Source: Desulfurococcaceae archaeon (GTDB lineage: Archaea > Thermoproteota > Thermoprotei_A > Sulfolobales > Desulfurococcaceae). Taken from it: a stretch of 47,144 bases of DNA. The DNA is taken from positions 1-47,144 of the forward strand of contig JAWBBW010000010.1 of the NCBI GenBank assembly GCA_038824035.1, given 5' to 3'. This document shows positions 35,803-47,144 of this stretch, piece by piece (within the stretch, counting starts at the first letter, position 1; each line of letters begins with the position of its first letter). The position numbers and the translations under genes were made by a program. A model generated the notes under the pieces. The model did not search any database and was not told the DNA's origin. It saw only the letters and a program-made list of their open reading frames with translations.

Positions 35803-36594
35803 ATGCATATTGGGAAACACTTGAGAATGTACCGCATACTAAGCCCTGTCACAAACAGGACTGTGATAGTCCCATTGGATCATGGCGGTTACGGGATGAT
35901 CGAGGGTTTAGAGGATATAAGTAACGTTGTTAAGGGCGTTGTGAAAGGAGGGGCTAATGCATTGATCCTACAGCCAGGCATCGTGAAACAGGTGTACAAG
36001 GAGATCGCCGGTAAAACTGGGCTGATAATAAGGGTAAGCGCTATCTCCGTTTTCAACAAGAATAGAGGGTTGATCGAGGCTGGCACGTACAGTGTCGAGA
36101 ACTCGTTGATGCTCGGGGCTGATGCAGTTATAACATCGCTGTATATCGGGGGTGAATATGAAATCGAAAGCATAGAGAACACTAGTAGTGTGTGTGGCGT
36201 GGCTGATAGATATGGTGTGCCGTGTTTGGTGGAGGCCTTTCCATCCTTGGACAGGTTTAAGAGTGTTCAAGACCCAGAGGGAATAATACAGGTGATTAGA
36301 ATGGCAGTGGAGCTTGGTGCCGACATGGTCAAGGCCTATCTACCGGCTGATTACGATTTCATGAAAGAAGCTGTTAAGAAAGCCAGGGTACCAGTGGTGT
36401 TAGCTGGCGGTGAGGCCTCCTCGCCGATAGATGTATTGAGGCTCGCCAAGCTCGCGATCGATGCTGGTTTAGCCGGTGTCTGCTTCGGGAGAAAGGTTTT
36501 CAAATACAAGGACCCGTCTTTAATGGTCAAGGCATTATCCCTTATAATCCATGAAGGCCTGGGCGTGGAAGAGGCATCTAAGATCCTTGTTTAA
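35803..36594 (+). CDS. Class I (DhnA/LsrF-type) aldolase
   Basis: PLDHG, LGADAV, ELGADMVK (Schiff-base Lys), PVVLAGG, G..FGR.VF. Start at ATG 35803 after AGGTGG. Confidence 0.9.
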   Translation: MHIGKHLRMYRILSPVTNRTVIVPLDHGGYGMIEGLEDISNVVKGVVKGGANALILQPGIVKQVYKEIAGKTGLIIRVSAISVFNKNRGLIEAGTYSVENSLMLGADAVITSLYIGGEYEIESIENTSSVCGVADRYGVPCLVEAFPSLDRFKSVQDPEGIIQVIRMAVELGADMVKAYLPADYDFMKEAVKKARVPVVLAGGEASSPIDVLRLAKLAIDAGLAGVCFGRKVFKYKDPSLMVKALSLIIHEGLGVEEASKILV

Positions 36595-37297
36595 CAACAT
36601 CTATGTACACTGGGTGTAATTGCATTTTAAAATCCCTTTTACCCTCCATGGCTATCATTACCCATAAGTATTTCAACCCCTTCACAGGCGTTGAGACATT
36701 TGGATGATAACCCCTTGTCACCAACACAGCGTCGTAATCCCTCACTATATATGCCTCTTCATGGTCATCGTTAATTATTAATTGAACACCAAGTCCAGGC
36801 TCCACATCATAGTACACGAATAACTCGTATTTGTCGTCGTGTCTATGAGGTGGAAACGAACCCCAGCAACCAGGGCAACAATGTGTATAACCCGCGAGAA
36901 ACCTAGAAGATGCGTCTTCCTCGCCTATGAGCAAGTATCTTCTTCTACGAGATCTCTCATCACCTATATCGAAGAACATTGCATCTCCAAATCTCTTGAG
37001 ATATGGTTTATATTTAGTATTAGACATGGCCTCTAAGACATAGACAATTGAACCCTCTTGAAGCGAGAGATCTAGGCGGCTTATTCCCATGGGTATGTAT
37101 ATCATGTCCTTTTCAAGGGCCATTAATTCATTGAATTTCACAGCCCCTTTAAGGGGCACAATTATTTTCTCGCTCTCAGTGTTTGTGTATATCGATACTG
37201 AGGTTATTTTGATCGATTGGATAAAATGAAGAGCTATGTCTCGAATACGAAATATTTCAATCGGTTTATCCGTAATTCCTGGCTTCCTGAACAACAT
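36578..37297 (-). CDS. 5-deoxy-glucuronate isomerase-like cupin (IolB/KduI family)
   Basis: WGSFPPHRHD, ELFVYY, G.GVQ, D.VLV.RGYHP. Start at ATG 37297 after GGAGGTG. Confidence 0.87.
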   Translation of the reverse strand: MLFRKPGITDKPIEIFRIRDIALHFIQSIKITSVSIYTNTESEKIIVPLKGAVKFNELMALEKDMIYIPMGISRLDLSLQEGSIVYVLEAMSNTKYKPYLKRFGDAMFFDIGDERSRRRRYLLIGEEDASSRFLAGYTHCCPGCWGSFPPHRHDDKYELFVYYDVEPGLGVQLIINDDHEEAYIVRDYDAVLVTRGYHPNVSTPVKGLKYLWVMIAMEGKRDFKMQLHPVYIDVVKQGS

Positions 37298-37448
37298 GTT
37301 TAAAGCACCTCCTTGACTCTGCCAGGTTCGTGTAGGCCATGAGTGGGTATTAAACAATTTAATATCAATTAGCTCTAAGACAATTCATTAAAAACACAGC
37401 CCTAATGGTTTACAGGAACATGGTGTAAAACAGTGATATGAAACACCA

Positions 37449-38537
37449 CTAACCCTCATTGAGAACACACCACTCCTCTACAAGTCTCCTATAGATCTCA
37501 ATACCTTTTTTCAATTCATCCATGGATATCCTCTCTTCAGCACTATGTGCGAGCTCTGATCTGCCGGGTCCATAAGCAATCATGTCCTCCGTTATAACTG
37601 GGAACAATATATTCATATCGCTTGTGCCGTGTTTGTATAAGACCCTCGGTTTTTGCCCAGCTCTGAGCAAGGCCCTGATTAAGGCCCTTGCAACCTCGTT
37701 GTTAATGCTCGACTTAACAGGTTTTGTAAACTCTATTAAATCCCATTCACATCCATCCATGGATGATATAGCATTTCGAATATCATGTATAACCGATTCC
37801 GGGTCATTATCTATGCCTATTCTCACCTGGATCAATGCTGACCCTTCTCTAGGTATAACAGGCATATCCTCGCCACACTCTAATTTCAATAGAACAGCTG
37901 TATTGTGATTAACACCAACATTGTCATAGCCCCTGTTCTTGAGAACATTCCATATCCCTATTAATTTCTCACAAGCCGATCCACTCGAGCCCATCGAGGA
38001 ATGTCCCCCTTGCCCAGTACAGTAAACCCTCACTTTCAAACTCCCTCTGTAACCGATGACTACTCCATTGGTGTTAGTTGGCTCAGCTATCACAACCCCC
38101 TTTGCCCTGAATCCTTTTCTAACCAAGTGTTTTGCACCTATGCTTTCGCCCTCCTCATCAACCAATGCAATTGCATATATTTTGTATTTCCCAGTATTCA
38201 CGAAGTCCTTGGCGAGGGCGAATCCTATGAAACCAGCGACCAGTGGGCCCTTGGCGTCCACTGCTCCTCTGCCCTGGATCTCGTCCCCACTTACGCTTAT
38301 AGGTATCTTCCACGGAATAGTGTCTATGTGGCCTATCAAAGCCAGCGTTCTATCCCCTTTTCCATAACTGGCTATTAAGTTACCGACTTCGTCCACTTCG
38401 ACATGTTCATAGCCCAGTTTCTCGGCATATTTCCCCAGGATCTCTACTGCCTGACGCTCTCCTCGAGGAGGGCTATATGTTTTCAATAGATCTAGCAACA
38501 TCTCTACGGCTAAGTTCTTGATCAACGCATTTCTCAA
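37449..38537 (-). CDS. lysK: [LysW]-lysine hydrolase (M20 family)
   Basis: GHIDT, GRGAVDAKGPL, DEEG, EP, GYRG, GTSDMN, YGPG.S.LAH..EE. Last gene of lysWXJK. Confidence 0.92.
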   Translation of the reverse strand: MRNALIKNLAVEMLLDLLKTYSPPRGERQAVEILGKYAEKLGYEHVEVDEVGNLIASYGKGDRTLALIGHIDTIPWKIPISVSGDEIQGRGAVDAKGPLVAGFIGFALAKDFVNTGKYKIYAIALVDEEGESIGAKHLVRKGFRAKGVVIAEPTNTNGVVIGYRGSLKVRVYCTGQGGHSSMGSSGSACEKLIGIWNVLKNRGYDNVGVNHNTAVLLKLECGEDMPVIPREGSALIQVRIGIDNDPESVIHDIRNAISSMDGCEWDLIEFTKPVKSSINNEVARALIRALLRAGQKPRVLYKHGTSDMNILFPVITEDMIAYGPGRSELAHSAEERISMDELKKGIEIYRRLVEEWCVLNEG

Positions 38538-39663
38538 GGAGATTCACCGCGTAATATATGTCATCGGTTGTGATCATATATGGAGGTAGGAATCTCACAA
38601 CACTCACACCAGCTTTAAGCGCTAGTAAACCGTTTCTCTGCAAACACTTGATCACACCTGTTGGCGGCACCCTGAGGTCTACTCCAATCATCAATCCCTT
38701 TCCACGTATATCCTTTACCAGCCTGTTCCCACCTATCCTCTTAGAGAGCACATACATGAATAGTTCCCCGGATTCCCTTGCTTTCGAAGGGACATTGTCT
38801 TGTAACAAAACATCAACAGATGCCTTCACAGCTACGCATGCCAATGGATTACCACCATATGTTGTCCCATGTGAACCCTCCTCGAGTTTGTTAGCTATGT
38901 CTGACCGAGTGAAAACAGCGCTGACTGGGAAACCCCCTCCTATTGCTTTACCAGCTACTAATATATCGGGTTTGACCCCGTATTGCTCAAATAACCACAC
39001 AGTACCAGTTCTCCCGAACCCTGTCTGTACTTCGTCGATCACGACATATGCACCGGTCTCCGAGGCTCTCTCAACGACGTGTTTCACAAACTCGTTAAGA
39101 GCTACGTTGACACCGCCTTCTCCTTGTATTAATTCAAGTACCACGCACGACGTATTATTGTCAATTACCTTGTCAACATCGTGGGGGTCGTTAAACCTGG
39201 CTTGACATGTACCTGGTAATAGGGGTTCAAAACCCTCTCGGTATTTCCTATTTGAAGAAGTTATTGATAAAGCGCCCAATGTCCTGCCGTGGAAAGACCC
39301 AGTGAAATAGACTATTTTTTCACGTTTACTCGCCTTTCTACACATCTTGATACTGAATTCTATTGCCTCACTGCCGCTGTTGAGTAAGTATACGTACTCG
39401 TAATCACTTGGCACGATCTTTGACAATGCCTCGAGCATTTCATCCCTTATGCTCGTCCTAAAAGACGTCGACAACGTCATTATTCTCTCCATTTGCTCGA
39501 TCAAGGATTTCACTATATGGGGGTTTCTATGCCCTAGGAAGGCGACACCATGCCCTGTGTGCATATCGAGATATTTATTCCCGTGTTTATCCCAGACATA
39601 TTGTGCCTCTCCTCTAATTATTTCGAGTTCTCTATCCTCGTACATCATTAGGTATTTCAACAT
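38473..39663 (-). CDS. lysJ: [LysW]-aminoadipate semialdehyde transaminase (class III)
   Basis: YLD...G.GV..LGH, NSGSEA, FHGRT.G, ELIQGEGG, DEVQTGFGRTG, GKAIGGG.P, HGTTYGGNPL, RFLPP. Confidence 0.93.
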   Translation of the reverse strand: MLKYLMMYEDRELEIIRGEAQYVWDKHGNKYLDMHTGHGVAFLGHRNPHIVKSLIEQMERIMTLSTSFRTSIRDEMLEALSKIVPSDYEYVYLLNSGSEAIEFSIKMCRKASKREKIVYFTGSFHGRTLGALSITSSNRKYREGFEPLLPGTCQARFNDPHDVDKVIDNNTSCVVLELIQGEGGVNVALNEFVKHVVERASETGAYVVIDEVQTGFGRTGTVWLFEQYGVKPDILVAGKAIGGGFPVSAVFTRSDIANKLEEGSHGTTYGGNPLACVAVKASVDVLLQDNVPSKARESGELFMYVLSKRIGGNRLVKDIRGKGLMIGVDLRVPPTGVIKCLQRNGLLALKAGVSVVRFLPPYMITTDDIYYAVNLLEKCVDQELSRRDVARSIENI

Positions 39664-39665
39664 GT

Positions 39666-40517
39666 TTATTTCCTCGCCACTTGCTTTACGTACTCAATCA
39701 CCTTTACATGGACCTTATAGCCAGTAACTCTGACAGTGTTCTTGAATTCTGGGACAGCATTGACCTCGTTAACTATATACCCTCTCTCAGGGTCCTCGAA
39801 TACATCTATTCCCATGAACTCCCCTCCGATGGCTTTCGCCGTCTTAATGGCTATCTCCTCTAATTCACTGTCCACTTTAGCTGGGAGAGCCACTCCTCCT
39901 CTAGCTGTATTAGTTATCCAATGTTCACTTGCCCTATATATGGCGACCGGTACTTCCTCTCCTATTACGAACACTCTTATATCTCTGCCAGGTTTCTTGA
40001 CGAATTCCTGGATCATGAAGATCCTCATGATCGGGTTTGGGATAAAGCTTCTGTGTTCTAATAGCGATCTCAATTCCTCGTGATCTCTTGCCAACGATAC
40101 CAATCGACCCCAACTACCATCTATGGGCTTTATTACGACTGGATAACCGCCAAGCGCTTCAACGGCCTTTGTAGATGGCTCGTGGTCAAACGCTATGATC
40201 GTTCTTGGGACTTTAATACCCCTTGAAACCAGTATTTGAGCTGTCCATAGCTTGTTCATCGCTATGGCTGTTGAGAGCGAATTATTGATCACCCTTATAT
40301 TCGCTGATTCAAGAGCTATTGTGGAGTTTAATGCAATGGCATGGCTTATTGCGCGCTGTAAGGCGATATCTACGTGGTCTTTGTCACTACTCCCTATGGG
40401 CATGTACACTGAGTGGAGATGTATAAGCTTTAACTCTACACCCAGTTCCCTAGCAGCCTCCATTAACGCCTTCTCTTCCCATCTAATAACTTCGTATACT
40501 ATGCCCAATTTCACCAA
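39666..40517 (-). CDS. lysX: Alpha-aminoadipate--LysW ligase (ATP-grasp)
   Basis: RWEEK, KP..GSWGR, QEFV.KPGRDIR, LysX-type signatures IYR...HWITNTARGG and EFKNT. Confidence 0.94.
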   Translation of the reverse strand: MVKLGIVYEVIRWEEKALMEAARELGVELKLIHLHSVYMPIGSSDKDHVDIALQRAISHAIALNSTIALESANIRVINNSLSTAIAMNKLWTAQILVSRGIKVPRTIIAFDHEPSTKAVEALGGYPVVIKPIDGSWGRLVSLARDHEELRSLLEHRSFIPNPIMRIFMIQEFVKKPGRDIRVFVIGEEVPVAIYRASEHWITNTARGGVALPAKVDSELEEIAIKTAKAIGGEFMGIDVFEDPERGYIVNEVNAVPEFKNTVRVTGYKVHVKVIEYVKQVARK

Positions 40518-40538: not shown

Positions 40539-40709
40539 TTACTCGCCCCAATCTTCTCCTACGCCTTCAAATGGCCTTAGCTTGATCTCCCCGTTTTCAA
40601 TCACGACCTCAAGTGTTATCCCGCAATCATGTTCCACTAATTCTCCTTCCAATACATCACTTGGCAGGTTTACAACCCCGCCACATATAGGGCACTTGGC
40701 CTCAGGCAT
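40539..40709 (-). CDS. lysW: Amino-group carrier protein LysW (56 aa, absent from the ORF track)
   Basis: MPEAKCPICGGVVNLPSDVLEGELVEHDCGITLEVVIENGEIKLRPFEGVGEDWGE. Zn knuckles, EDWGE C-terminus, GGTGA RBS. Confidence 0.97.
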   Translation of the reverse strand: MPEAKCPICGGVVNLPSDVLEGELVEHDCGITLEVVIENGEIKLRPFEGVGEDWGE

Positions 40710-40779
40710 ATAGATCACCCGGTTTCATGCATGAAGGTGATGATTATTGGCAGGGATTATATATGAATCGGTAATTACA

Positions 40780-40860: not shown

Positions 40861-40914
40861 TGTGATTAATAAACTCCTACCGTGTATATTGCTATACCGT
40901 TCAAGGGGGTTGGC

Positions 40915-41973
40915 TTGTCTAAAGTCAATGTGTGTATTATAGGTGGATCCGGCTATACAGGGGGAGAATTACTGAGAATACTAGCTGGACACCCCTATAC
41001 CGATATAGTAATCGTGACCTCTAGGGAGCATGCTGGCAAACCCCTGCACCACGTACACCCAAATCTACGCGGGTTTTACAAGGACTTGAAATTCAGCCAG
41101 ATCAATATGGATCAGATCCTCAGCAAATGCGATGCTGTGTTCCTATCGCTACCACATACAGTGTCTCTGCAATATGTGCCAAAACTATATGAGGCGGGAT
41201 TGAAAGTCGTGGACCTAAGTGCTGATTTCAGGTTAAAAGACCCTGTTCTCTACAAGATATGGTATGGATTCGAACATCCATATCCAGATCTCTTGGGGAA
41301 AGCTGTCTACGGCATGCCGGAGATACATAGAGAGGAGTTGAGAAACGCGAGGCTAATAGCTGTCCCGGGGTGCAACGCCACTGCATCTATTTTATCCTTG
41401 TTACCGCTCATTAAGGGCGATCTTGTGGAACATGACAAGATCGTCATAGATGTGAAGGCTGGGAGTAGTGAAGCCGGTTCTAAGCCCTCGCCTGGAGATC
41501 ATCATCCCGAGAGAGAGGGTTGTATTAGGCCATATGATCCACATGGACATAGGCATGTCGCGGAGATAGAACAGGAGTTAAAGACCATTTCTGGAAAGGA
41601 GATCAAGGTATCCATGATACCTCATGCTGTGAGCTCTGTGAGAGGGGTATTAGCATCCACGCATGCATGGCTAGTTAAGGATATTGACGAGATGGGTATT
41701 TTGAGAGCATATGTTAATACTTATAGAGGAGAACCATTCATCAGGATCGTCTATAAAACAATACCCGGTTACCCCGATCCCAAGTATGTGATTGGGAGTA
41801 ATTACGCCGATATCGGGTTCGCGATCGAGAGCAGGGTTCGCAGGATCTCGTCTTTCTGTGCAATAGATAACCTGGTTAAGGGCGCGGCTGGACAAGCGGT
41901 TCAGGCGTTCAATATATCGATGGGGTTCGAGGAAACAACTGGCTTGGTAATAATCCCCCCTAGACCTGTCTAG
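40915..41973 (+). CDS. lysY: [LysW]-aminoadipate-phosphate reductase (ArgC family)
   Basis: GGSGYTGGEL, LPH, DLSADFRL, YGMPE, PGCNAT, GSSEAG, HHPER, HRH.AE, DNLVKGAAGQAVQ. Start trimmed to TTG 40915. Confidence 0.94.
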   Translation: MSKVNVCIIGGSGYTGGELLRILAGHPYTDIVIVTSREHAGKPLHHVHPNLRGFYKDLKFSQINMDQILSKCDAVFLSLPHTVSLQYVPKLYEAGLKVVDLSADFRLKDPVLYKIWYGFEHPYPDLLGKAVYGMPEIHREELRNARLIAVPGCNATASILSLLPLIKGDLVEHDKIVIDVKAGSSEAGSKPSPGDHHPEREGCIRPYDPHGHRHVAEIEQELKTISGKEIKVSMIPHAVSSVRGVLASTHAWLVKDIDEMGILRAYVNTYRGEPFIRIVYKTIPGYPDPKYVIGSNYADIGFAIESRVRRISSFCAIDNLVKGAAGQAVQAFNISMGFEETTGLVIIPPRPV

Positions 41974-42783
41974 GTGATGGTGTTGTCAATAGTTGTCAAA
42001 GCCGGTGGTAGGGCTATCGCAATGAACCTGGACAACATAGTGAGTGATATAGTCAACATCTCCAGTACCTGGAAAACGGTTTTCGTACATGGAGGTGGAG
42101 ACATGGTCACGGAGATGTGTATGAGACTTGGCATAGAGCCCAGGTTTGTGACATCGCCTGAGGGGATTAGAAGCAGGTACACGAATAGAGATGAACTAGA
42201 TGTATATCTAATGGTCATGGCCGGTAAATTGAACAAGATGATAGTTTCGAAAATCATAGCCCTGGGTAAAAAGGCCATTGGTTTGAGCGGGGCTGATGGC
42301 CCGTTGTTGATCGCAGAAAGGAAGAAGAAAATTGTCGTGGTCGATGAAAGAGGTAGGAAAAGGGTGATCGATGGTGGTTATACTGGGAGAGTTGTAGAGG
42401 TCAAGTTGGATTTATTGGAGAGATTGCTAGGCGAATACATAGTGGTGGTTTCGCCAATAGCTATTGACCGGGAAGGCTTATTGCTGAACATAGATGGCGA
42501 TCAAGCGGCATACGCCATAGCTTCTTCCATCAAGGCCGATACCTTGGTGTTGTTATCTGATGTGGAGGGCGTGTTGCTCGGTGATAAGTTGATCAAGGAG
42601 CTCCGAGCACAGGACATAGACCTCATCATAGACAAGATAGGGCCTGGTATGAATAGGAAATTATTACTGGCTAAGAAAGCCGTTGAAGAAGGGGTCAACC
42701 AGGTCGTGATATCCTCTGGCCTCGTCGCAAATCCAGTGTCTAATGCATTAAAGGGCATGGGCACATTGATAACAAGGGGTTAA
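41974..42783 (+). CDS. lysZ: [LysW]-aminoadipate kinase (ArgB family)
   Basis: VVKAGG, VHGGG, SRYT, GLSGADG, GGYTG, N.DGD, SDV.G, GM..K. Confidence 0.93.
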   Translation: MMVLSIVVKAGGRAIAMNLDNIVSDIVNISSTWKTVFVHGGGDMVTEMCMRLGIEPRFVTSPEGIRSRYTNRDELDVYLMVMAGKLNKMIVSKIIALGKKAIGLSGADGPLLIAERKKKIVVVDERGRKRVIDGGYTGRVVEVKLDLLERLLGEYIVVVSPIAIDREGLLLNIDGDQAAYAIASSIKADTLVLLSDVEGVLLGDKLIKELRAQDIDLIIDKIGPGMNRKLLLAKKAVEEGVNQVVISSGLVANPVSNALKGMGTLITRG

Positions 42784-42784
42784 T

Positions 42785-43204
42785 ATGCGCATAGACGAGA
42801 TAGATCTGAGGCTTTTACAGCTATTGAAAGAGAACGCTAGAATGCCTTACTCAAGGTTAGCCAGGGAACTAGGTATCAGCGAGGGTGCTGTGAGGAAGAG
42901 AATTGCGAAACTAATTAAAATCGGTGTGATCAAGAAAATGACGATAGAATACGAACTAGACAACGAGATCAAGGCTATAATATTGGTTAAGACCCAGCCC
43001 CCAATACCAGTGCCCGAGGTGTCGAAAAACATAAGGAAAATACCCGGGGTAGACATAGTTTATGAGGTGACAGGCGAATACGACATAGTGGTGATCACAA
43101 GATCGCCGAACATAGATAATGTGAATAGGTTAATAGATGAAATAAGGTCTATCTCGGGAGTTGCCAGTACGTATACAATGATGGTGTTGAGAACCTGGGT
43201 CTAG
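42785..43204 (+). CDS. lysM: Lrp/AsnC-family regulator of lysine genes
   Basis: IDEID..LL.LL.ENAR..Y..LA..LG.SEGAVRKRI, YEVTGEYD RAM domain. lysYZM gene order as in Sulfolobales. Confidence 0.9.
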   Translation: MRIDEIDLRLLQLLKENARMPYSRLARELGISEGAVRKRIAKLIKIGVIKKMTIEYELDNEIKAIILVKTQPPIPVPEVSKNIRKIPGVDIVYEVTGEYDIVVITRSPNIDNVNRLIDEIRSISGVASTYTMMVLRTWV

Positions 43205-43428: not shown

Positions 43429-44727
43429 ATGTATCAGGAATGCCCAGATTTCAATAACAACTTGGAGGGGGAGGAATATTATCGAGGTATATATCCATTC
43501 AAAGAAGTGCCCAGGTTTTGTTGCTTCGATAAAAAGGATTTGATGAATGATTTAAACAAGATATACTTAACAGATACAACTCTCAGAGATGGTCAACAAG
43601 GATGGAGAGTTTTCACAATTAATGAATGCGAAAGAATATACGAACTACTGGCTGAGTTCGGCAAGGCCGTCAAGAGCACAGAGGTATTTCTGTACACCGA
43701 GAAAGACCAGTTAATTGCCAAGAGACTTGTAGAATATGGTTATGAATATCCAAAAGTCATAGGGTGGATCAGAGCTACTAGGTCGGATCTCAAGCTCGTA
43801 ATGGATGCCCGTCTCGATGAAACAGTTGTGCTCGCATCAATATCGGATTACCACATAAAGCATAAGTTCAATTTAACTAGAGGGGAAGCGATAAGGAAAT
43901 ACCTAGATGTGATCGAAGAGGCGTTGAGGAATGGCATAGTACCCAGGGTTTCACTAGAGGATATAACGAGAGCTGATGTAGAGAATGTCGTGTTGCCTTT
44001 TATTAAGAGGTTATTAAAGCTTGGCGAGAGATATGGGTTACCAGTTAAAATAAAACTACCTGATACTCTTGGACTTGGATTACCGTTTTACGAGGTCTCA
44101 TTACCTAGAAGTATCCCTAGGATCATCATAGCTATAAGGTCCCTTGGAGTGCCATCTGAGAACATAGAGTTTCACGGCCACAACGACTTCGGCCTAGTCG
44201 TGGCTAACCAGTTGGCGGCGTGGATTTATGGGGCCGGAGGCGCGAACTGTACTTTGATGGGGATAGGTGAGAGAGCTGGTAATTGCCCTCTCGAAGTGAT
44301 GGCGATTCATTACGCTGGCATAAAGGGTTCAAGCGAGATCAATTTAAGAGCAGTGGCCAAGGTACCAGAGTTGTTGGAAAACATGGGTTACAGGATCCCA
44401 GATCACTACCCCTTTATCGGTAAAAACGCATTCACGACAAGGGCTGGTATACATGTTGATGGGCTTGTTAAAAACCCCGAAGTATACTTACCATTTGACC
44501 CTATACATGTGCTTGGAATACCTTTCTCAATCGCCATAACGCCTTATTCCGGTAGATCTGCCATAGTGTTGTGGATTAGGAATCACCTTGGTCGTAAGGA
44601 CGTGAACAAGGATGATCCGAGAGTAATCGCTATTTACAAGGAGATATTGGAGTATTTCGAGAAAACTGGAAGAACAACTCCATTGGATAACCACGAGGTG
44701 TTGTCATTTATTAAAAAGTACTTTTAA
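43429..44727 (+). CDS. DRE-TIM acyl-CoA:2-oxoacid condensing enzyme, Re-citrate-synthase-like, probable homocitrate synthase
   Basis: DTTLRDGQQG, EVFLY..KD, WIRA, SDYHI..K, EDITRAD, DTLG.G, LPRS, HGHNDFG, GIGERAGN, AF...AGIH.DG. Confidence 0.85.
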   Translation: MYQECPDFNNNLEGEEYYRGIYPFKEVPRFCCFDKKDLMNDLNKIYLTDTTLRDGQQGWRVFTINECERIYELLAEFGKAVKSTEVFLYTEKDQLIAKRLVEYGYEYPKVIGWIRATRSDLKLVMDARLDETVVLASISDYHIKHKFNLTRGEAIRKYLDVIEEALRNGIVPRVSLEDITRADVENVVLPFIKRLLKLGERYGLPVKIKLPDTLGLGLPFYEVSLPRSIPRIIIAIRSLGVPSENIEFHGHNDFGLVVANQLAAWIYGAGGANCTLMGIGERAGNCPLEVMAIHYAGIKGSSEINLRAVAKVPELLENMGYRIPDHYPFIGKNAFTTRAGIHVDGLVKNPEVYLPFDPIHVLGIPFSIAITPYSGRSAIVLWIRNHLGRKDVNKDDPRVIAIYKEILEYFEKTGRTTPLDNHEVLSFIKKYF

Positions 44728-44757: not shown

Positions 44758-46020
44758 ATGGGCTTTGTGGACACGTTGTTCTCGAATGTCCTTGGCAGAG
44801 AAGTGTCGCCAGGGGAAATAGTGATCGTCGATATCGATGCCATATATGCACATGATGGGACAGCGCCATTGGTAATAGATGTCTTGGAGAAGGAACTTAA
44901 ACCCCCCGTTTTACTAGCTAGTACTAGGACTTTCTTTTTCATGGATCATCTTGCCCCGGCACCCCATGTGTCAGCGGCTTCTGTGCATAGGAAAATGAGG
45001 GCTTTCAGCGAGAAACATGGGATCAATTTATACGATATCGGTAACGGTATTTGTCACCAAGTAATGGTTGACGAGGGAATTGCCAGGCCTGGGATGATAA
45101 TCATGGGGGCTGATAGCCACACACCAACTCTCGGGGCACTGGGGCTTTATGCGATCGGGGTTGGGAGCACGGATGTGGCAGTGGCCATGGCTTATGGAAA
45201 ACAGTGGATCAGGGTTCCACCCACGGTGAAAGTGGTATTAACTGGGAGACCAGGGATAGGTATCACATCCAAGGACATAGCACTCAGTGTCATAGGTAAA
45301 GTGGGCACGGATGGCATGATAGGTAGAGTCGTGGAATTCCACGGTGATACGCTGAGGTATCTATCAATCGATGCAAGGTTAACCTTGACAAATATGTGTA
45401 CAGAGATGACAGCCGAATCAGCTGTCATACCCATTGACGAGGTAACTGAGAGATGGCTTACTCAAAAGGGTTTAACACCGTATAGATACCTCAAATACGA
45501 TAGCTCCAAAGCGTTCTTTATCGATGAAATCGTATTTGAGGTATCAAAACTAGAGCCAGTAGTCGCGGCTCCACCAGATGTCGACAATGTCAAGTCGATC
45601 AACGAAGTGGAGGGCATCGAGGTTGACCAGGTGTATATAGGGTCTTGTACTAATGGTAGGTTAGAGGACTTGGAAATAGCGTCTAGGATATTGAAAGGCC
45701 GCAAAGTCCACGTGAACACTAGGTGTATAGTATCGCCGGCTTCGAGGAAAGTGTATATGGATGCCCTTGAAAAAGGGTACATAGATGTGTTGATCAGGAC
45801 TGGATGTGTGATAGCCCCTCCGACATGCGGGCCCTGTGTAGGAGCCCACATGGGTATTTTGGCAGAGGGCGATGTAGCGGTGTCAACTACTAACAGGAAT
45901 TTCCCAGGCAGAATGGGGCATAAGGATAGCAAGGTCTACTTGGCCTCGCCCGCGGTGGCGGCCGCTACCGCTGTGGAAGGTAAAATAACTGATCCCAGGA
46001 AATACCTAGGAGGTGTCTAA
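44758..46020 (+). CDS. Homoaconitase / 3-isopropylmalate dehydratase large subunit
   Basis: HDGT, DH, GICHQ, GADSHT.T.GA, IGSCTNGR, CGPC.G, STTNRNF.GRMG, YLASP. Confidence 0.93.
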   Translation: MGFVDTLFSNVLGREVSPGEIVIVDIDAIYAHDGTAPLVIDVLEKELKPPVLLASTRTFFFMDHLAPAPHVSAASVHRKMRAFSEKHGINLYDIGNGICHQVMVDEGIARPGMIIMGADSHTPTLGALGLYAIGVGSTDVAVAMAYGKQWIRVPPTVKVVLTGRPGIGITSKDIALSVIGKVGTDGMIGRVVEFHGDTLRYLSIDARLTLTNMCTEMTAESAVIPIDEVTERWLTQKGLTPYRYLKYDSSKAFFIDEIVFEVSKLEPVVAAPPDVDNVKSINEVEGIEVDQVYIGSCTNGRLEDLEIASRILKGRKVHVNTRCIVSPASRKVYMDALEKGYIDVLIRTGCVIAPPTCGPCVGAHMGILAEGDVAVSTTNRNFPGRMGHKDSKVYLASPAVAAATAVEGKITDPRKYLGGV

Positions 46021-46527
46021 ATGAAGATCAGAGGTAGATGTTGGAAACTAGGGGATAATATCAGTACAGACCACATAATATCGGGCAAATATAAGTTCAG
46101 CGCTATTGATAGCCTGGACTCGATGATCAGATATGTATTCGAGGAAGTGATACCCGGGTTCAATGAGAAGGTTGAAAAGGGCGATATAATAATAGCTGGT
46201 AGGAATTTCGGCAAGGGGTCGAGCAGGGAACATGCGCCGAGACTACTAAAGGCAGTTGGGATCAGCGCTGTAGTTGCCAAGAGCTTCTCCCACATATTCT
46301 TTAGAAATGCGATAAACATAGGCCTCCCCGTTGTGATTGCAAGAGAGATACCTGATATAACGCAGAACTGGGATATTATAGAAATAGACCTAGAGAAAGG
46401 CGTTATCAGGAACATGACAAGGGGTTTCGAGGAGAAAATAACCCCGTATCCGAGAGAAATAGCATCCATATTAGAAGCAGGTGGGATTGTGGAGTTCATT
46501 AAGAAACAAGGTGGTTTAAAATGGTGA
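46021..46527 (+). CDS. Homoaconitase / 3-isopropylmalate dehydratase small subunit
   Basis: GDNISTDHII, GRNFG.GSSREHA, SF..IFFRNAINIG. Confidence 0.93.
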   Translation: MKIRGRCWKLGDNISTDHIISGKYKFSAIDSLDSMIRYVFEEVIPGFNEKVEKGDIIIAGRNFGKGSSREHAPRLLKAVGISAVVAKSFSHIFFRNAINIGLPVVIAREIPDITQNWDIIEIDLEKGVIRNMTRGFEEKITPYPREIASILEAGGIVEFIKKQGGLKW

Positions 46528-47144
46528 GGAGGTATAGGATAGGCGTGATCAAAGGAGATGGTATTGGGCCAGAGGTCGTGGATGCTTCACTGAGGGTATT
46601 GGGTGAACTGGGCTTAGACCTGGAGTTCATCGAGATAAGCGCTGGTTATGGTTATTACAAGAGGACTGGTAAACCAATTGAGGACGGGTTCGTGGACAAG
46701 GTAATGGAAATGGATGCTGTGTTGAAAGGGCCTCTTCACACACCTCCACACGACCCTAGCTTTAGGAGCGTGAACGTGTTGATTAGGAGAACGCTCGATC
46801 TCTACGCTAACATAAGGCCTTTTAAGAGCTATAAGGGGATCTCCCAGCGCGAATTCAATTTCGTGATCATCAGGGAGAACACTGAGGGCGAGTACATAGG
46901 TATTGAAGGGGTTTTCAGTGACATGGCGATCTCGCTCAGAGTTGTAACGGAGAGAGGTTCCAGGAGAATCTGTGATTTCGCGTTCAGGTATGCGAAACTC
47001 CATGGATTTAATAAAGTAACAGTTGTCCATAAGGCCAATATCCTGAAGATCACAGACGGGCTATTCAGAGACGTGTTTTTCCGAGTGGCCTCTAGCTACC
47101 CGGATATAATCGCGGACGAATTAATAGTGGATACAGCGGCATAT
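46521..47144 (+). CDS. Beta-decarboxylating dehydrogenase (isocitrate/homoisocitrate/isopropylmalate DH family), 3'-truncated by window edge
   Basis: Own translation from ATG 46521: GDGIGPEV, KGPLHTP, RSVNV.IR..LDLYANIRP, RENTEGEY, HKANILK.TDGLF, VD. Absent from the ORF track. Confidence 0.93.
   Translation, partial: MVRRYRIGVIKGDGIGPEVVDASLRVLGELGLDLEFIEISAGYGYYKRTGKPIEDGFVDKVMEMDAVLKGPLHTPPHDPSFRSVNVLIRRTLDLYANIRPFKSYKGISQREFNFVIIRENTEGEYIGIEGVFSDMAISLRVVTERGSRRICDFAFRYAKLHGFNKVTVVHKANILKITDGLFRDVFFRVASSYPDIIADELIVDTAAY

What the first reader, a model, noticed from the sequence alone, without database searches (positions are those of the whole stretch)
43429..44727. Re-citrate-synthase-clade enzyme apparently retooled as the homocitrate synthase of a LysW pathway
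Seen: motifs YPF.EVP, DTT.RDGQQ, E.FLY..KD, WIRA, SDYHI..K, EDITRAD, LPRS and AW.YG. I recognise these from clostridial/Syntrophus Re-citrate synthases rather than Thermus, Sulfolobus or fungal homocitrate synthases. At the substrate-pocket strand it reads R-V-S-L-E-D (43945-43962). As I recall, Re-citrate synthases have R-C-H-x-E-D there and homocitrate synthases have R-F-S-x-E-D, whose Arg and Ser bind the C5 carboxylate of 2-oxoglutarate. Inference: a His-to-Ser change enlarged the pocket, giving an independently evolved homocitrate synthase or a citrate/homocitrate bifunctional enzyme.
Basis: partly seen in the sequence, partly recalled or inferred. Interest (0 to 1): 0.75.

Follow-up and report, generated by a model that had tools for sequence, protein, structure and literature searches.

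The report
Homocitrate synthase related to Re-citrate synthase
This archaeal gene encodes the genome's only acetyl-CoA/2-oxoacid condensing enzyme, a close cousin of the oxygen-sensitive Re-citrate synthases, which sits in a lysine-biosynthesis cluster and most likely makes homocitrate and perhaps also citrate.

Summary
ORF 43429-44727 (432 aa) carries all eight motifs, and R-V-S-L-E-D lies at 43945-43962 (R173, S175).

Placement:
- 45% identical to the Clostridium kluyveri protein CKR_0877, which reads R-C-H-L-E-D.
- 28% identical to a canonical homocitrate synthase (HCS).
- In both trees it lies outside the His-type (Re-citrate synthase) clade and far from the canonical HCS/IPMS/CimA enzymes.

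Context:
- It is the only HMGL-like gene in a 99.67%-complete genome.
- That genome has no Si-citrate synthase, no DAP pathway and no IlvC.
- The gene lies in lysK-J-X-W / lysY-Z-M-[it]-hacA-hacB-hicdh.

The protein belongs to a large archaeal clade in which the Re-citrate-synthase His is Ser, Thr or Ala. I assigned that type to 79 of 351 genomes of its class; 72 of them have LysX. In several lineages the gene lies inside lys clusters or beside lysM.

Best reading: HCS of the LysW/aminoadipate pathway (about 0.7).

Canonical HCS and IPMS also have Ser or Thr at this position, so His looks derived.

Open question: four genomes keep the operon without LysX or LysZ, and six combine it with a canonical HCS but no Si-citrate synthase. 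A dual citrate/homocitrate role is therefore possible (about 0.3). No enzyme assay exists.

The parts
43429..44727 (+). Target ORF, 432 aa: LeuA/HCS-family (DRE-TIM) acetyl-CoA:2-oxoacid condensing enzyme of the archaeal Ser/Thr/Ala-type clade. Proposed homocitrate synthase.
   Evidence: Pfam HMGL-like (132 bits) plus HCS_D2. No NCBIfam equivalog reaches its cut-off. It is the only HMGL-like gene in the genome.
43945..43962 (+). R173-V-S175-L-E-D strand. It aligns with R-C-H-L-E-D of the C. kluyveri protein and with R-F-T-A-E-D of canonical HCS.
43573..43599 (+). DTTLRDGQQ motif (R53 and D54; Q56 stands where canonical enzymes have Glu).
43765..43776 (+). WIRA motif. W113 aligns with the His of canonical HCS (ivaHsRA in 6ktq).
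   Evidence: alignment. W in 137 of 137 ungapped rows.
44173..44181 (+). H249-G-H251, the H-x-H metal-ligand motif of the family. That these are metal ligands is recalled from solved family structures.
   Evidence: Invariant in alignment A1. H249 in 141 of 141 rows and H251 in 138 of 141 rows.
42785..43204 (+). lysM, Lrp-type regulator, directly upstream with a 224-bp gap to the target.
   Evidence: NF040947, 204.5 bits against cut-off 180.
41974..42783 (+). lysZ, [LysW]-aminoadipate/[LysW]-glutamate kinase.
   Evidence: NF010662, 366.8 bits against cut-off 194.
40882..41973 (+). lysY/argC-type reductase.
   Evidence: TIGR01850, 426.6 bits against cut-off 233.6.
40539..40718 (-). lysW carrier protein (CPxCG zinc ribbon, C-terminal EDWGE).
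   Evidence: NF041070, 81.3 bits against cut-off 75.
39666..40517 (-). lysX, RimK-type ligase.
   Evidence: TIGR02144, 336.5 bits against cut-off 275.6. It is the only copy over the cut-off in the genome.
38473..39663 (-). lysJ aminotransferase.
   Evidence: NF045491, 519.5 bits, which is below the cut-off of 700. TIGR00707, 384 bits, which is below the cut-off of 410. The assignment is therefore at family level.
37449..38537 (-). lysK deacylase.
   Evidence: TIGR01902, 256.1 bits against cut-off 163.1. NF001747, 286.4 bits against cut-off 288.
44758..46020 (+). hacA, large subunit of a homoaconitase/IPM-isomerase-family dehydratase. It is the only aconitase-family gene in the genome.
   Evidence: TIGR01343, 510.4 bits against cut-off 385.7..
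46021..46527 (+). hacB, small subunit.
   Evidence: TIGR02087, 170.5 bits against cut-off 108.95. The loop reads GKYKF and is unlike the IPMI-type ARYLVY.
46521..47144 (+). Homoisocitrate/isocitrate-type beta-decarboxylating dehydrogenase, cut by the contig end. It is the only Iso_dh gene in the genome.
   Evidence: partial match; LEU3_arch 209.8 bits..

Best explanation
The ORF encodes the organism's only acetyl-CoA:2-oxoacid condensing enzyme of the LeuA/HCS (DRE-TIM) family.

It belongs to a widespread, uncharacterised archaeal clade. That clade is the nearest relative of the C. kluyveri-type Re-citrate synthases, but the His of their R-x-H-x-E-D strand is replaced by Ser, Thr or Ala.

In this genome it most likely condenses acetyl-CoA with 2-oxoglutarate to give homocitrate. 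The co-transcribed hacA/hacB dehydratase and the beta-decarboxylating dehydrogenase would convert homocitrate to 2-oxoadipate. After transamination, the aminoadipate would enter the LysW-X-Z-Y-J-K route to lysine. The Lrp-type regulator LysM lies immediately upstream.

Shown here: family, clade, active-site residues, gene order, genome inventory and distribution across genomes.

Inferred: the substrate (2-oxoglutarate), co-transcription, regulation by LysM, and that R173 and S175 contact the distal carboxylate as in canonical HCS. The residue roles are recalled from the T. thermophilus and S. pombe HCS structures.

Whether the enzyme also accepts oxaloacetate is left open.
For: (1) Context. 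The order is lysK-J-X-W (minus strand) / lysY-Z-M-target-hacA-hacB-hicdh (plus strand).

(2) Inventory of a 99.67%-complete genome:
- one HMGL-like gene;
- one aconitase-family gene and one Iso_dh gene, both next to the target;
- no DapB and no LysA over its cut-off (69 bits against 297.9), so lysine can only come through aminoadipate;
- no IlvC (18.6 bits against 226), so an IPMS or CimA role has no pathway to feed.

(3) Linkage in relatives:
- Of 31 Ser/Thr/Ala-type loci among the 80 kept, 21 have hacA next to the gene, 4 have hicdh directly next, and 7 have lys genes in the locus (L007, L016, L018, L020, L021, L055, L078).
- In Vulcanisaeta the gene lies inside lysZ-W-X-K-[it]-J-X.
- Of 60 further loci, 8 carry lysW/X/Y/Z/J/K genes within about 9 kb, and 3 more carry lysM beside the gene. 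Some genomes appear in both sets.

(4) Distribution in 351 genomes of the class:
- 79 carry the Ser/Thr/Ala type, and 72 of these have LysX.
- 21 of the 79 have LysX and an Si-citrate synthase but no canonical HCS, so there the enzyme is the only HCS candidate and is not needed for citrate.
- Vulcanisaeta AZ3 has an IPMS-like gene, CimA and Si-citrate synthase, and only this type as an HCS candidate.

(5) Ignicoccus pacificus keeps a His-type protein plus a canonical HCS (TIGR02146, 487.7 bits against 413.55). This fits His = citrate synthase and non-His = something else.

(6) R173-x-S175-x-E-D is the same dyad as in canonical HCS.
Against: - No assay exists for any member of this clade. I found none in five full-text searches.
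- Four genomes from three genera keep an intact target-hacA-hacB-hicdh operon but have neither LysX nor LysZ. They are G145, G151, G154 and G016. G151 and G154 are single-contig genomes, and G154 is Thermogladius sp. KZ2Tp1. In those genomes the operon cannot serve lysine.
- Six genomes combine a Thr-type operon with a canonical HCS and have no Si-citrate synthase.
- The genome has OTC and ArgG, so the LysW genes could serve arginine alone.
- Arg173 is replaced by K in 24 of 89 clade members and by M, E, T or I in 5 of 89, some of them inside lys clusters.
- The canonical HCS His aligns with Trp113 here, so 2-oxoglutarate cannot be bound exactly as in solved HCS.
- 15 of 102 LysX-positive genomes of at least 90% completeness have neither HCS type, so LysX does not always imply a recognisable HCS.
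Confidence: 0.7

Rival explanations
1. Dual-substrate enzyme in an iterative module. The same condensing enzyme, hacAB and dehydrogenase first turn oxaloacetate into 2-oxoglutarate through (Re-)citrate. They then turn 2-oxoglutarate into 2-oxoadipate. One four-gene set would supply glutamate, arginine (through LysW) and lysine. This refines the best explanation and is not exclusive of it.
For: - The genome has no Si-citrate synthase and only one aconitase-family gene and one Iso_dh gene.
- Four genomes keep the operon without LysX or LysZ.
- Six genomes have it beside a canonical HCS but lack Si-citrate synthase.
- None of the 79 carriers has both a canonical HCS and an Si-citrate synthase.
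- Genomes of genus g73 and of the Ignicoccus genus have three or four condensing enzymes but only two aconitase-family and two Iso_dh genes. One isomerase/dehydrogenase set must therefore be shared there.
- Recalled precedents, not checked here: T. thermophilus HCS accepts oxaloacetate, and P. horikoshii has an isocitrate/homoisocitrate dehydrogenase. The latter is cited as Miyazaki 2005 in PMC1963480 (passages seen). NCBIfam holds a model for it, NF040855.
Against: - Such heterotrophs may need no de novo glutamate. 57 of 62 other genomes of the family have neither this enzyme nor Si-citrate synthase.
- His and Arg are invariant in 52 of 52 His-type proteins. This suggests they matter for oxaloacetate, and they are lost or relaxed here.
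- Three genomes carry two Ser/Thr-type copies and one carries a His-type plus an Ala-type. This points to specialisation rather than promiscuity.
- The co-occurrence pattern rests on few independent lineages.
Confidence: 0.3
2. Citrate synthase only. The module makes 2-oxoglutarate and glutamate, the LysW genes make ornithine for arginine, and no lysine is made.
For: - The protein is closest to Re-citrate synthases.
- OTC and ArgG are present.
- There is a single LysX.
- The LysW and LysZ models are named for both aminoadipate and glutamate.
- The operon exists without the LysW pathway in four genomes.
Against: - The His that defines all 52 His-type proteins is absent.
- 21 carriers already have an Si-citrate synthase, lack any other HCS, and mostly have two LysX-type ligases.
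- The Vulcanisaeta gene is embedded in the lys cluster although Si-citrate synthase is present.
- The lysW-X-J-K order matches the lysine-type cluster.
Confidence: 0.13
3. One reading: a Re-citrate synthase was retooled into an HCS by a His-to-Ser change.
For: - The shared N-terminal extension and motifs, and 45% identity.
- AU tests do not reject the Ser/Thr/Ala types being one clade sister to the His clade (p 0.881; p 0.254). The polarity is therefore not settled by topology alone.
Against: - Canonical HCS and IPMS outgroups have Ser or Thr at this position.
- The His state needs one change, on the stem of the His clade.
- In the careful tree the His clade is nested as sister of the Vulcanisaeta-type Ser clade (99/96). 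The Ser/Thr/Ala types are one side of a branch in 0 of 200 bootstrap trees.
- The target lies outside the His clade in both trees.
Confidence: 0.12
4. It is what public sources call it: a 2-isopropylmalate or citramalate synthase.
For: Source names such as '2-isopropylmalate synthase'. The best NCBIfam hit is an IPMS subfamily model.
Against: - That hit scores 179.6 bits against a cut-off of 517.
- There is no IlvC.
- The gene is separated from IPMS and CimA by a 100/100 branch.
- The neighbours are lys genes.
- The hacB loop is unlike the IPMI-type loop.
Confidence: 0.03

Closest known systems
Re-citrate synthase of Clostridium kluyveri type (P0276 = CKR_0877 of C. kluyveri NBRC 12016). That this is the enzyme characterised by Li et al. 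2007 as CKL_0973 is recalled; that paper was not held.
   Same: - 45% identity over 431 residues.
- Shared N-terminal extension [FY]P[FY]xxVP.
- Shared motifs DTTxRDGQQ, ExFLYTxKD, WIRA, SDYHI, EDITRAD and AWxYG.
- The same operon logic: condensing enzyme, then an aconitase-like gene, then an Iso_dh-like gene in Clostridium.
- Same superclade, 100/100.
   Different: - Ser175 instead of the invariant His.
- L52 instead of F, and I111 instead of T.
- It lies outside the His clade.
- Its neighbours are lysine genes.
- The dehydratase has two LeuCD-type subunits.
Canonical homocitrate synthase (T. thermophilus, S. acidocaldarius 6ktq, fungal Lys20/21; NCBIfam TIGR02146).
   Same: The proposed reaction and pathway position, the R-x-[ST]-x-E-D strand, the H-x-H motif, and the HMGL-like plus HCS_D2 domains.
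   Different: - 28% identity.
- TIGR02146 scores 155.6 bits against 413.55.
- RDGQQ instead of R[DE]GEQ.
- Trp113 where HCS has His.
- It has the N-terminal extension.
- It lacks the C-terminal extension that makes the crenarchaeal HCS 460-560 aa long.
Second Re-citrate-synthase lineage (Heliomicrobium HM1_2993, Thermoanaerobacter, C. difficile, Dehalococcoides).
   Same: It shows that citrate synthase activity arose more than once in this family. Passages of PMC12016533 were seen.
   Different: According to that paper it is only about 28% identical to the C. kluyveri and Syntrophus enzymes. It was not placed in my trees because no sequence was at hand.
Methanogen AksA/AksD-E/AksF iterative 2-oxoacid elongation, and the P. 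horikoshii isocitrate/homoisocitrate dehydrogenase.
   Same: They are precedents for one condensing/isomerase/dehydrogenase set acting on homologous substrates of different chain length. This is recalled. The Miyazaki 2005 citation was seen in PMC1963480.
   Different: Those systems start from 2-oxoglutarate, or concern only the dehydrogenase. An oxaloacetate to 2-oxoglutarate to 2-oxoadipate iteration has not been described in what I could search.

Membership tests
LeuA/HCS (DRE-TIM, Pfam HMGL-like) condensing enzymes | HMGL-like TIM-barrel domain plus the post-barrel HCS_D2 subdomain. | tested here: met
   PF00682, 132.1 bits against 29. PF22617, 30.2 bits against 27.
LeuA/HCS (DRE-TIM, Pfam HMGL-like) condensing enzymes | R-[DE] motif and H-x-H motif. 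Their role as metal and substrate ligands is recalled. | tested here: met
   R53, D54, H249 and H251 are present and conserved.
C. kluyveri-type Re-citrate synthase (His-type clade) | Clade-wide motifs: N-terminal [FY]P[FY]xxVP, RDGQQ, ExFLYxxKD, WIRA, SDYHI. | tested here: met
C. kluyveri-type Re-citrate synthase (His-type clade) | R-x-H-x-E-D, with His invariant. | tested here: not met
   The target has S175. His is present in 52 of 52 His-type rows.
C. kluyveri-type Re-citrate synthase (His-type clade) | Falls inside the clade that holds the C. kluyveri protein. | tested here: not met
   The His clade has 97/98 support and excludes the target. In the 95-row tree the support is 100.
C. kluyveri-type Re-citrate synthase (His-type clade) | Citrate formation with Re-face stereochemistry, and oxygen sensitivity. 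| not testable with these tools
   This needs an enzyme assay.
Canonical homocitrate synthase (TIGR02146 / nifV TIGR02660) | Score over the curated cut-off of the equivalog models. | tested here: not met
   155.6 bits against 413.55, and 165.9 bits against 462.9.
Canonical homocitrate synthase (TIGR02146 / nifV TIGR02660) | R-x-[ST]-x-E-D strand. Its role in binding the distal carboxylate is recalled. | tested here: met
   R173-V-S175-L-E-D aligns with R-F-T-A-E-D.
Canonical homocitrate synthase (TIGR02146 / nifV TIGR02660) | His on the neighbouring strand (H-x-R-A). | tested here: not met
   Trp113 aligns with that His of 6ktq.
Canonical homocitrate synthase (TIGR02146 / nifV TIGR02660) | Homocitrate formation from 2-oxoglutarate. 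| not testable with these tools
   This needs an enzyme assay.
LysW-mediated aminoadipate lysine pathway (system) | [quoted passage not shown] | tested here: met
   LysJ is below its equivalog cut-off, so that assignment is at family level.
LysW-mediated aminoadipate lysine pathway (system) | Upstream module: HCS, homoaconitase and homoisocitrate dehydrogenase. | tested here: inconclusive
   Genes of the right families are adjacent, but their substrate specificity is not shown. The dehydrogenase gene is cut by the contig end.

The most novel reading that the evidence does not exclude
A single four-gene module (this condensing enzyme, hacA, hacB and the dehydrogenase) works iteratively. It elongates oxaloacetate to 2-oxoglutarate and then 2-oxoglutarate to 2-oxoadipate. 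Glutamate, arginine (through LysW) and lysine would then all derive from one promiscuous enzyme set in these small-genome hyperthermophiles.

The specialised Re-citrate synthases of anaerobic bacteria would have arisen from this archaeal stock by a Ser-to-His narrowing of the pocket.
Probability: 0.3. Interest if true: 0.8.

Novelty: new variant of a known kind. Interest (0 to 1): 0.6.

Why it matters
Many Thermoproteota have a full LysW pathway but no recognisable homocitrate synthase. In the class searched, 37 of 102 well-assembled LysX-positive genomes have only this enzyme type. Public sources call it '2-isopropylmalate synthase' or 'hypothetical protein'.

Assigning it would close that gap and correct a widespread annotation.

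It would also give the Re-citrate synthases of clostridia, Syntrophia and Thermodesulfobacteria a concrete sister group and a candidate specificity switch (Ser/Thr/Ala versus His at one strand, with co-varying L/F52 and I/T111).

If the dual-substrate reading is right, it would be a living example of patchwork-type pathway sharing between the start of the citric-acid cycle and lysine synthesis.

Tried and rejected
- Perfect complementarity between canonical HCS and the Ser/Thr/Ala type among LysX-positive genomes: rejected. 15 of 102 genomes have neither and 4 have both.
- 'The Arg of R-x-S is essential': rejected. K occurs in 24 and other residues in 5 of 89 rows.
- Paraphyly of the Ser/Thr/Ala types as a firm result: not claimed.
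  - The 95-row quick tree showed it, but a constrained tree was 35.3 lnL units better.
  - The 54-row careful tree shows it, but the AU test does not reject monophyly (p 0.254).
- Recent transfer judged by base composition: GC is 0.42-0.46 across the window with no step at the cluster.
- Reading substrate class from the hacB loop: it reads GKYKF, which is neither of the two loop motifs I recall for methanogen homoaconitase and IPM isomerase. I drew no conclusion beyond 'not IPMI-like'.
- Finding the published roles of the HCS pocket residues in the library: the one HCS paper opened (PMC8276798, passages) does not give them, so they stay recalled.
- Papers of Li et al. 2007 and Jahn et al. 2007: not held. 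What I say of them is recalled, or taken from passages of PMC12016533.
- Supplements were not consulted. Table S1 and Fig. S1 of PMC12016533 may hold Re-citrate-synthase accessions that would help.
- I ran no structure prediction, fold search, complex prediction, sequencing-run search or protein-atlas search. They would not have given residue-level geometry or substrate.
- The 79 Ser/Thr/Ala-type genomes were not all read. 57 non-His loci were read. The other genomes were assigned by genus and bit score. G241 was dropped as a weak canonical-type hit (204 bits). The six genomes of genus g48 were set aside as His-type; three of them were read.
Full report
OBSERVATION.
The ORF at 43429-44727 (+) is open and gives a 432-aa protein, P0001. 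R-V-S-L-E-D starts at residue 173, which is nt 43945-43962, so the residues at issue are R173 and S175.

WHAT SURROUNDS IT.
- On the minus strand lie lysK (37449-38537), lysJ (38473-39663), lysX (39666-40517) and a 59-aa lysW (40539-40718; NF041070, 81.3 bits against 75).
- On the plus strand lie lysY (40882-41973), lysZ (41974-42783) and lysM (42785-43204). A 224-bp gap follows, then the target.
- After the target come a LeuC/HacA-type large subunit (44758-46020), a small subunit (46021-46527) and an Iso_dh-family dehydrogenase (46521-47144) that is cut by the end of the contig.

GENOME INVENTORY.
The assembly has 1.33 Mb in 29 contigs and is 99.67% complete.
- It holds exactly one HMGL-like gene, which is the target.
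- It has no Si-citrate synthase.
- It has one aconitase-family gene and one Iso_dh gene, both next to the target.
- It has no DapB and no LysA over its cut-off.
- It has no IlvC.
- It has ArgG and an ornithine carbamoyltransferase.
- It has one LysX over the cut-off, plus a weak RimK-like gene elsewhere.

Three things follow. Lysine can only be made through aminoadipate. A branched-chain role for the enzyme has no pathway to feed. The LysW genes may also serve arginine.

WHICH FAMILY.
- Pfam finds HMGL-like plus HCS_D2.
- No NCBIfam equivalog comes near its cut-off. The best is an IPMS subfamily model at 179.6 bits against 517. The HCS models score 155.6 against 413.55 and 165.9 against 462.9.
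- The best solved relative is S. acidocaldarius HCS 6ktq (E 2.8e-35). None of the 13 PDB matches is a Re-citrate synthase.
- Public homologues of 50-76% identity come from Ignisphaera, Thermofilaceae, Desulfurococcaceae, Thermogladius, Stetteria and Pyrodictium. Sources call them '2-isopropylmalate synthase', 'homocitrate synthase/isopropylmalate synthase family protein' or 'hypothetical' (the best 120 of 7841 scored hits are listed).
- A whole-library HMMER search found 124 representatives at E up to 1e-30.
- A search with the C. ragsdalei homologue brought up a C. kluyveri protein (CKR_0877, P0276, 82% identical to the query) and two proteins that sources name 'citrate (Re)-synthase'.
- P0001 is 45% identical to P0276 over 431 residues, and the aligned strand of P0276 reads R-C-H-L-E-D.
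- P0001 is 28% identical to the canonical HCS of Ignicoccus pacificus, whose strand reads R-F-T-A-E-D.
- That CKR_0877 is the enzyme characterised by Li et al. 2007 is my recollection. That paper is not held.

THE DIAGNOSTIC COLUMN ACROSS RELATIVES.
I read 141 sequences: the window, 80 loci from named genomes (the best 80 of 595 confirmed) and 60 loci from the class-wide search. Some genomes occur in both sets.
- 52 sequences have His at the position of S175. All 52 also have R173, F52 and T or S at 111. They comprise every bacterial sequence (45) and seven archaeal ones: the Ignicoccus genus, a Methanomethyliaceae MAG, two Thermoproteota MAGs and a Nitrososphaerales MAG.
- 89 sequences have Ser (38), Thr (24) or Ala (27) there. 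At 173 they have R (60), K (24) or M/E/T/I (5). They mostly have L52 and I or V at 111.
- Trp113 is present in all 137 ungapped rows of both types. In 6ktq the aligned residue is His.
- Canonical HCS and IPMS representatives carry Ser or Thr at the position of S175. NifV-like representatives carry Gly.

TREES.
The 95-row quick tree:
- It splits canonical IPMS, CimA, HCS and NifV-like proteins from the 'superclade' with 100% support.
- It makes all His-type proteins one clade (100).
- It places the target with Ignisphaera-family, Thermogladius and same-genus sequences.

The 54-row careful tree, which includes the C. kluyveri protein:
- Outgroup against superclade has 100/100 support.
- The His clade has 97/98 support and is recovered in 96% of bootstrap trees.
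- The His clade is sister to the Vulcanisaeta-type Ser clade (99/96).
- The Ser/Thr/Ala types are never one side of a branch in 200 bootstrap trees.

AU tests do not reject Ser/Thr/Ala monophyly:
- On the 95 rows the constrained tree was even 35.3 lnL units better than the quick tree (p 0.881).
- On the 54 rows it was 4.56 units worse (p 0.254).

What is robust: the target is not a canonical HCS, and it is not inside the His (Re-citrate synthase) clade. What is not resolved: whether its clade is the sister of the Re-citrate synthases or the grade from which they arose. Either way the His state needs a single change, and the outgroups have Ser or Thr. His is therefore more likely the derived state.

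GENE CONTEXT IN RELATIVES.
- Among the 31 non-His loci, 21 have hacA directly downstream, 4 have the dehydrogenase directly downstream, and 7 carry lys genes in the locus.
- These include full lysWXJK/lysYZM clusters in a korarchaeote (L020) and in Desulfurococcales MAGs (L016, L018, L021). Two Vulcanisaeta genomes have the gene inside lysZ-W-X-K-[it]-J-X.
- Among the 60 further loci, 8 carry lysW/X/Y/Z/J/K genes and 3 more have lysM beside the gene.
- In Clostridium the His-type gene is followed by aconitase-like and Iso_dh-like genes, so the operon logic is shared.

DISTRIBUTION IN THE CLASS (351 GENOMES).
- A profile of the clade hits 86 genomes. LysX hits 159, canonical HCS 64 and Si-citrate synthase 147.
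- I set aside the six genomes of the Ignicoccus genus (His-type) and one weak hit. That leaves 79 genomes assigned to the Ser/Thr/Ala type. 57 non-His loci were read and the rest were assigned by genus.
- 72 of the 79 have LysX. They split as follows:
  - 45 have LysX only.
  - 21 have LysX and Si-citrate synthase but no canonical HCS.
  - 6 have LysX and a canonical HCS but no Si-citrate synthase.
  - None has both a canonical HCS and Si-citrate synthase.
- Seven lack LysX. G196 has LysZ at a contig end, and G007 and G246 are fragmentary. G145, G151, G154 and G016 lack both LysX and LysZ although their four-gene operon is intact. They are 96-99% complete, and G151 and G154 are single contigs.
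- Named examples fit the pattern:
  - I. pacificus has IPMS, CimA, a canonical HCS and a His-type protein.
  - Vulcanisaeta AZ3 has an IPMS-like gene, CimA, Si-citrate synthase and only the Ser-type as an HCS candidate.
  - Thermogladius and Methanodesulfokora have only the Ser-type.
- Of 102 LysX-positive genomes at least 90% complete, 37 have only this type, 42 only the canonical HCS, 4 both, 4 a His-type plus the canonical HCS, and 15 neither.
- These genomes are related to one another, so the counts are not independent.

HOW IT MOST LIKELY WORKS.
- Shown: a DRE-TIM condensing enzyme with intact R53-D54 and H249-x-H251, an HCS-like R-x-S strand and a Re-citrate-synthase-like remainder. It is placed between a lysine-type regulator and a dehydratase/dehydrogenase pair, in a genome with no alternative.
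- Inferred: it condenses acetyl-CoA with 2-oxoglutarate. hacAB and the dehydrogenase take homocitrate to 2-oxoadipate, and LysW-X-Z-Y-J-K finish lysine.
- The 21 genomes with Si-citrate synthase but no other HCS, and the embedding in Vulcanisaeta, are the strongest support. I put this reading at about 0.7.

WHAT SPEAKS FOR MORE THAN HCS.
- Four genomes keep the operon without a LysW pathway, and there 2-oxoadipate has no visible use.
- Six genomes have a canonical HCS as well and no Si-citrate synthase.
- Genus g73 and the Ignicoccus genus have only two aconitase-family and two Iso_dh genes for three or four condensing enzymes. Their canonical HCS stands alone. One dehydratase/dehydrogenase set must therefore handle two substrate series.
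- Together with the window's lack of any other citrate synthase, this keeps a dual citrate/homocitrate role alive, at about 0.3.
- Against it: most relatives in the window's own family have neither enzyme, so these heterotrophs may not need de novo glutamate. Several genomes also carry two specialised-looking copies.

COMPARISON AND NOVELTY.
- It works like an HCS but fails the sequence tests for the canonical HCS family. It looks like a Re-citrate synthase but fails that clade's defining His and its tree position.
- I found no description of this clade in the following searches:
  - 're-citrate synthase' with 'homocitrate synthase';
  - 'Ignicoccus', 'citrate synthase' and 'homocitrate';
  - 'homocitrate synthase', 'LysW', 'archaea' and 'citrate synthase' (0 papers);
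  - 're-citrate synthase' with 'archaea';
  - 'homocitrate synthase' with 'Desulfurococcales' (0 papers).
- The library lacks most subscription journals, so this is not proof of absence.
- PMC12016533 (passages) reports two Re-citrate-synthase lineages and cites Ignicoccus as an archaeon with Re-citrate synthase. This fits the His-type protein found there.
- I rate the finding a new variant of a known kind.

LIMITS.
- There is no biochemistry.
- The root of the superclade is unresolved.
- The roles of the pocket residues are recalled, not checked.
- Genome counts are phylogenetically clustered.
- Supplements were not available.

Noticed in passing
window 46521-47144: The dehydrogenase gene runs off the contig end. 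No second Iso_dh fragment was found elsewhere in the assembly, so its C-terminal third is unassembled.
   Followed up: partly
window 43429-44727 versus L096 (G167) and L002: Only 1 of 16 other genomes of the window's genus has the gene and LysX. In the careful tree the window's protein is sister to an Ignisphaera-family protein (96/97), not to the same-genus copy. This suggests transfer or differential loss. Base composition shows no step.
   Followed up: partly
L117/L118 (G194), L145/L146 (G012), L147/L148 (G011), L111/L112 (G184): Three genomes carry two Ser/Thr-type copies, one in the operon or cluster and one alone. G184 carries a His-type copy beside hacAB plus an Ala-type copy. These may be specialised citrate and homocitrate paralogues.
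   Followed up: no
L098 (G151), L009 (G154), L097 (G145), L150 (G016): The condensing enzyme-hacA-hacB-dehydrogenase operon is intact in genomes that lack LysX and LysZ.
   Followed up: partly
G017, G018, G059-G061, G076-G078, G080, G081, G109, G254, G261, G269, G292: Fifteen well-assembled LysX-positive genomes have neither the canonical HCS nor this type. Either the LysW pathway serves only arginine there, or a third HCS type exists.
   Followed up: no
L036, L040, L041, L045, L047, L049-L051, L056, L059-L064, L067, L068, L071, L073, L075-L077, L079 and others: His-type proteins of Thermodesulfobacteriota, Syntrophia and relatives are about 600-700 aa long, against about 455 aa in Clostridium. 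They carry a C-terminal extension that I did not examine.
   Followed up: no
G277, G279, G186, G188: These genomes hold only two aconitase-family and two Iso_dh genes but three or four LeuA-family condensing enzymes. This implies that the isomerase and dehydrogenase are shared between pathways.
   Followed up: partly
window 38473-38537: As called, lysJ and lysK overlap by 65 nt. The lysK start (TTG at 38537) may lie further downstream.
   Followed up: no
window 36578-37357 (-): An ORF with a weak match to 5-deoxy-glucuronate isomerase IolB (55.6 bits against a cut-off of 205) lies next to the lys cluster. Its function is unclear.
   Followed up: no
window 46021-46527 (hacB residues about 19-27): The small-subunit substrate loop reads IISGKYKF in this clade. 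The IPM-isomerase-like gene of Vulcanisaeta L078 reads IIPARYLVY. The Lys may replace the Arg of the methanogen homoaconitase loop; that loop motif is recalled.
   Followed up: no
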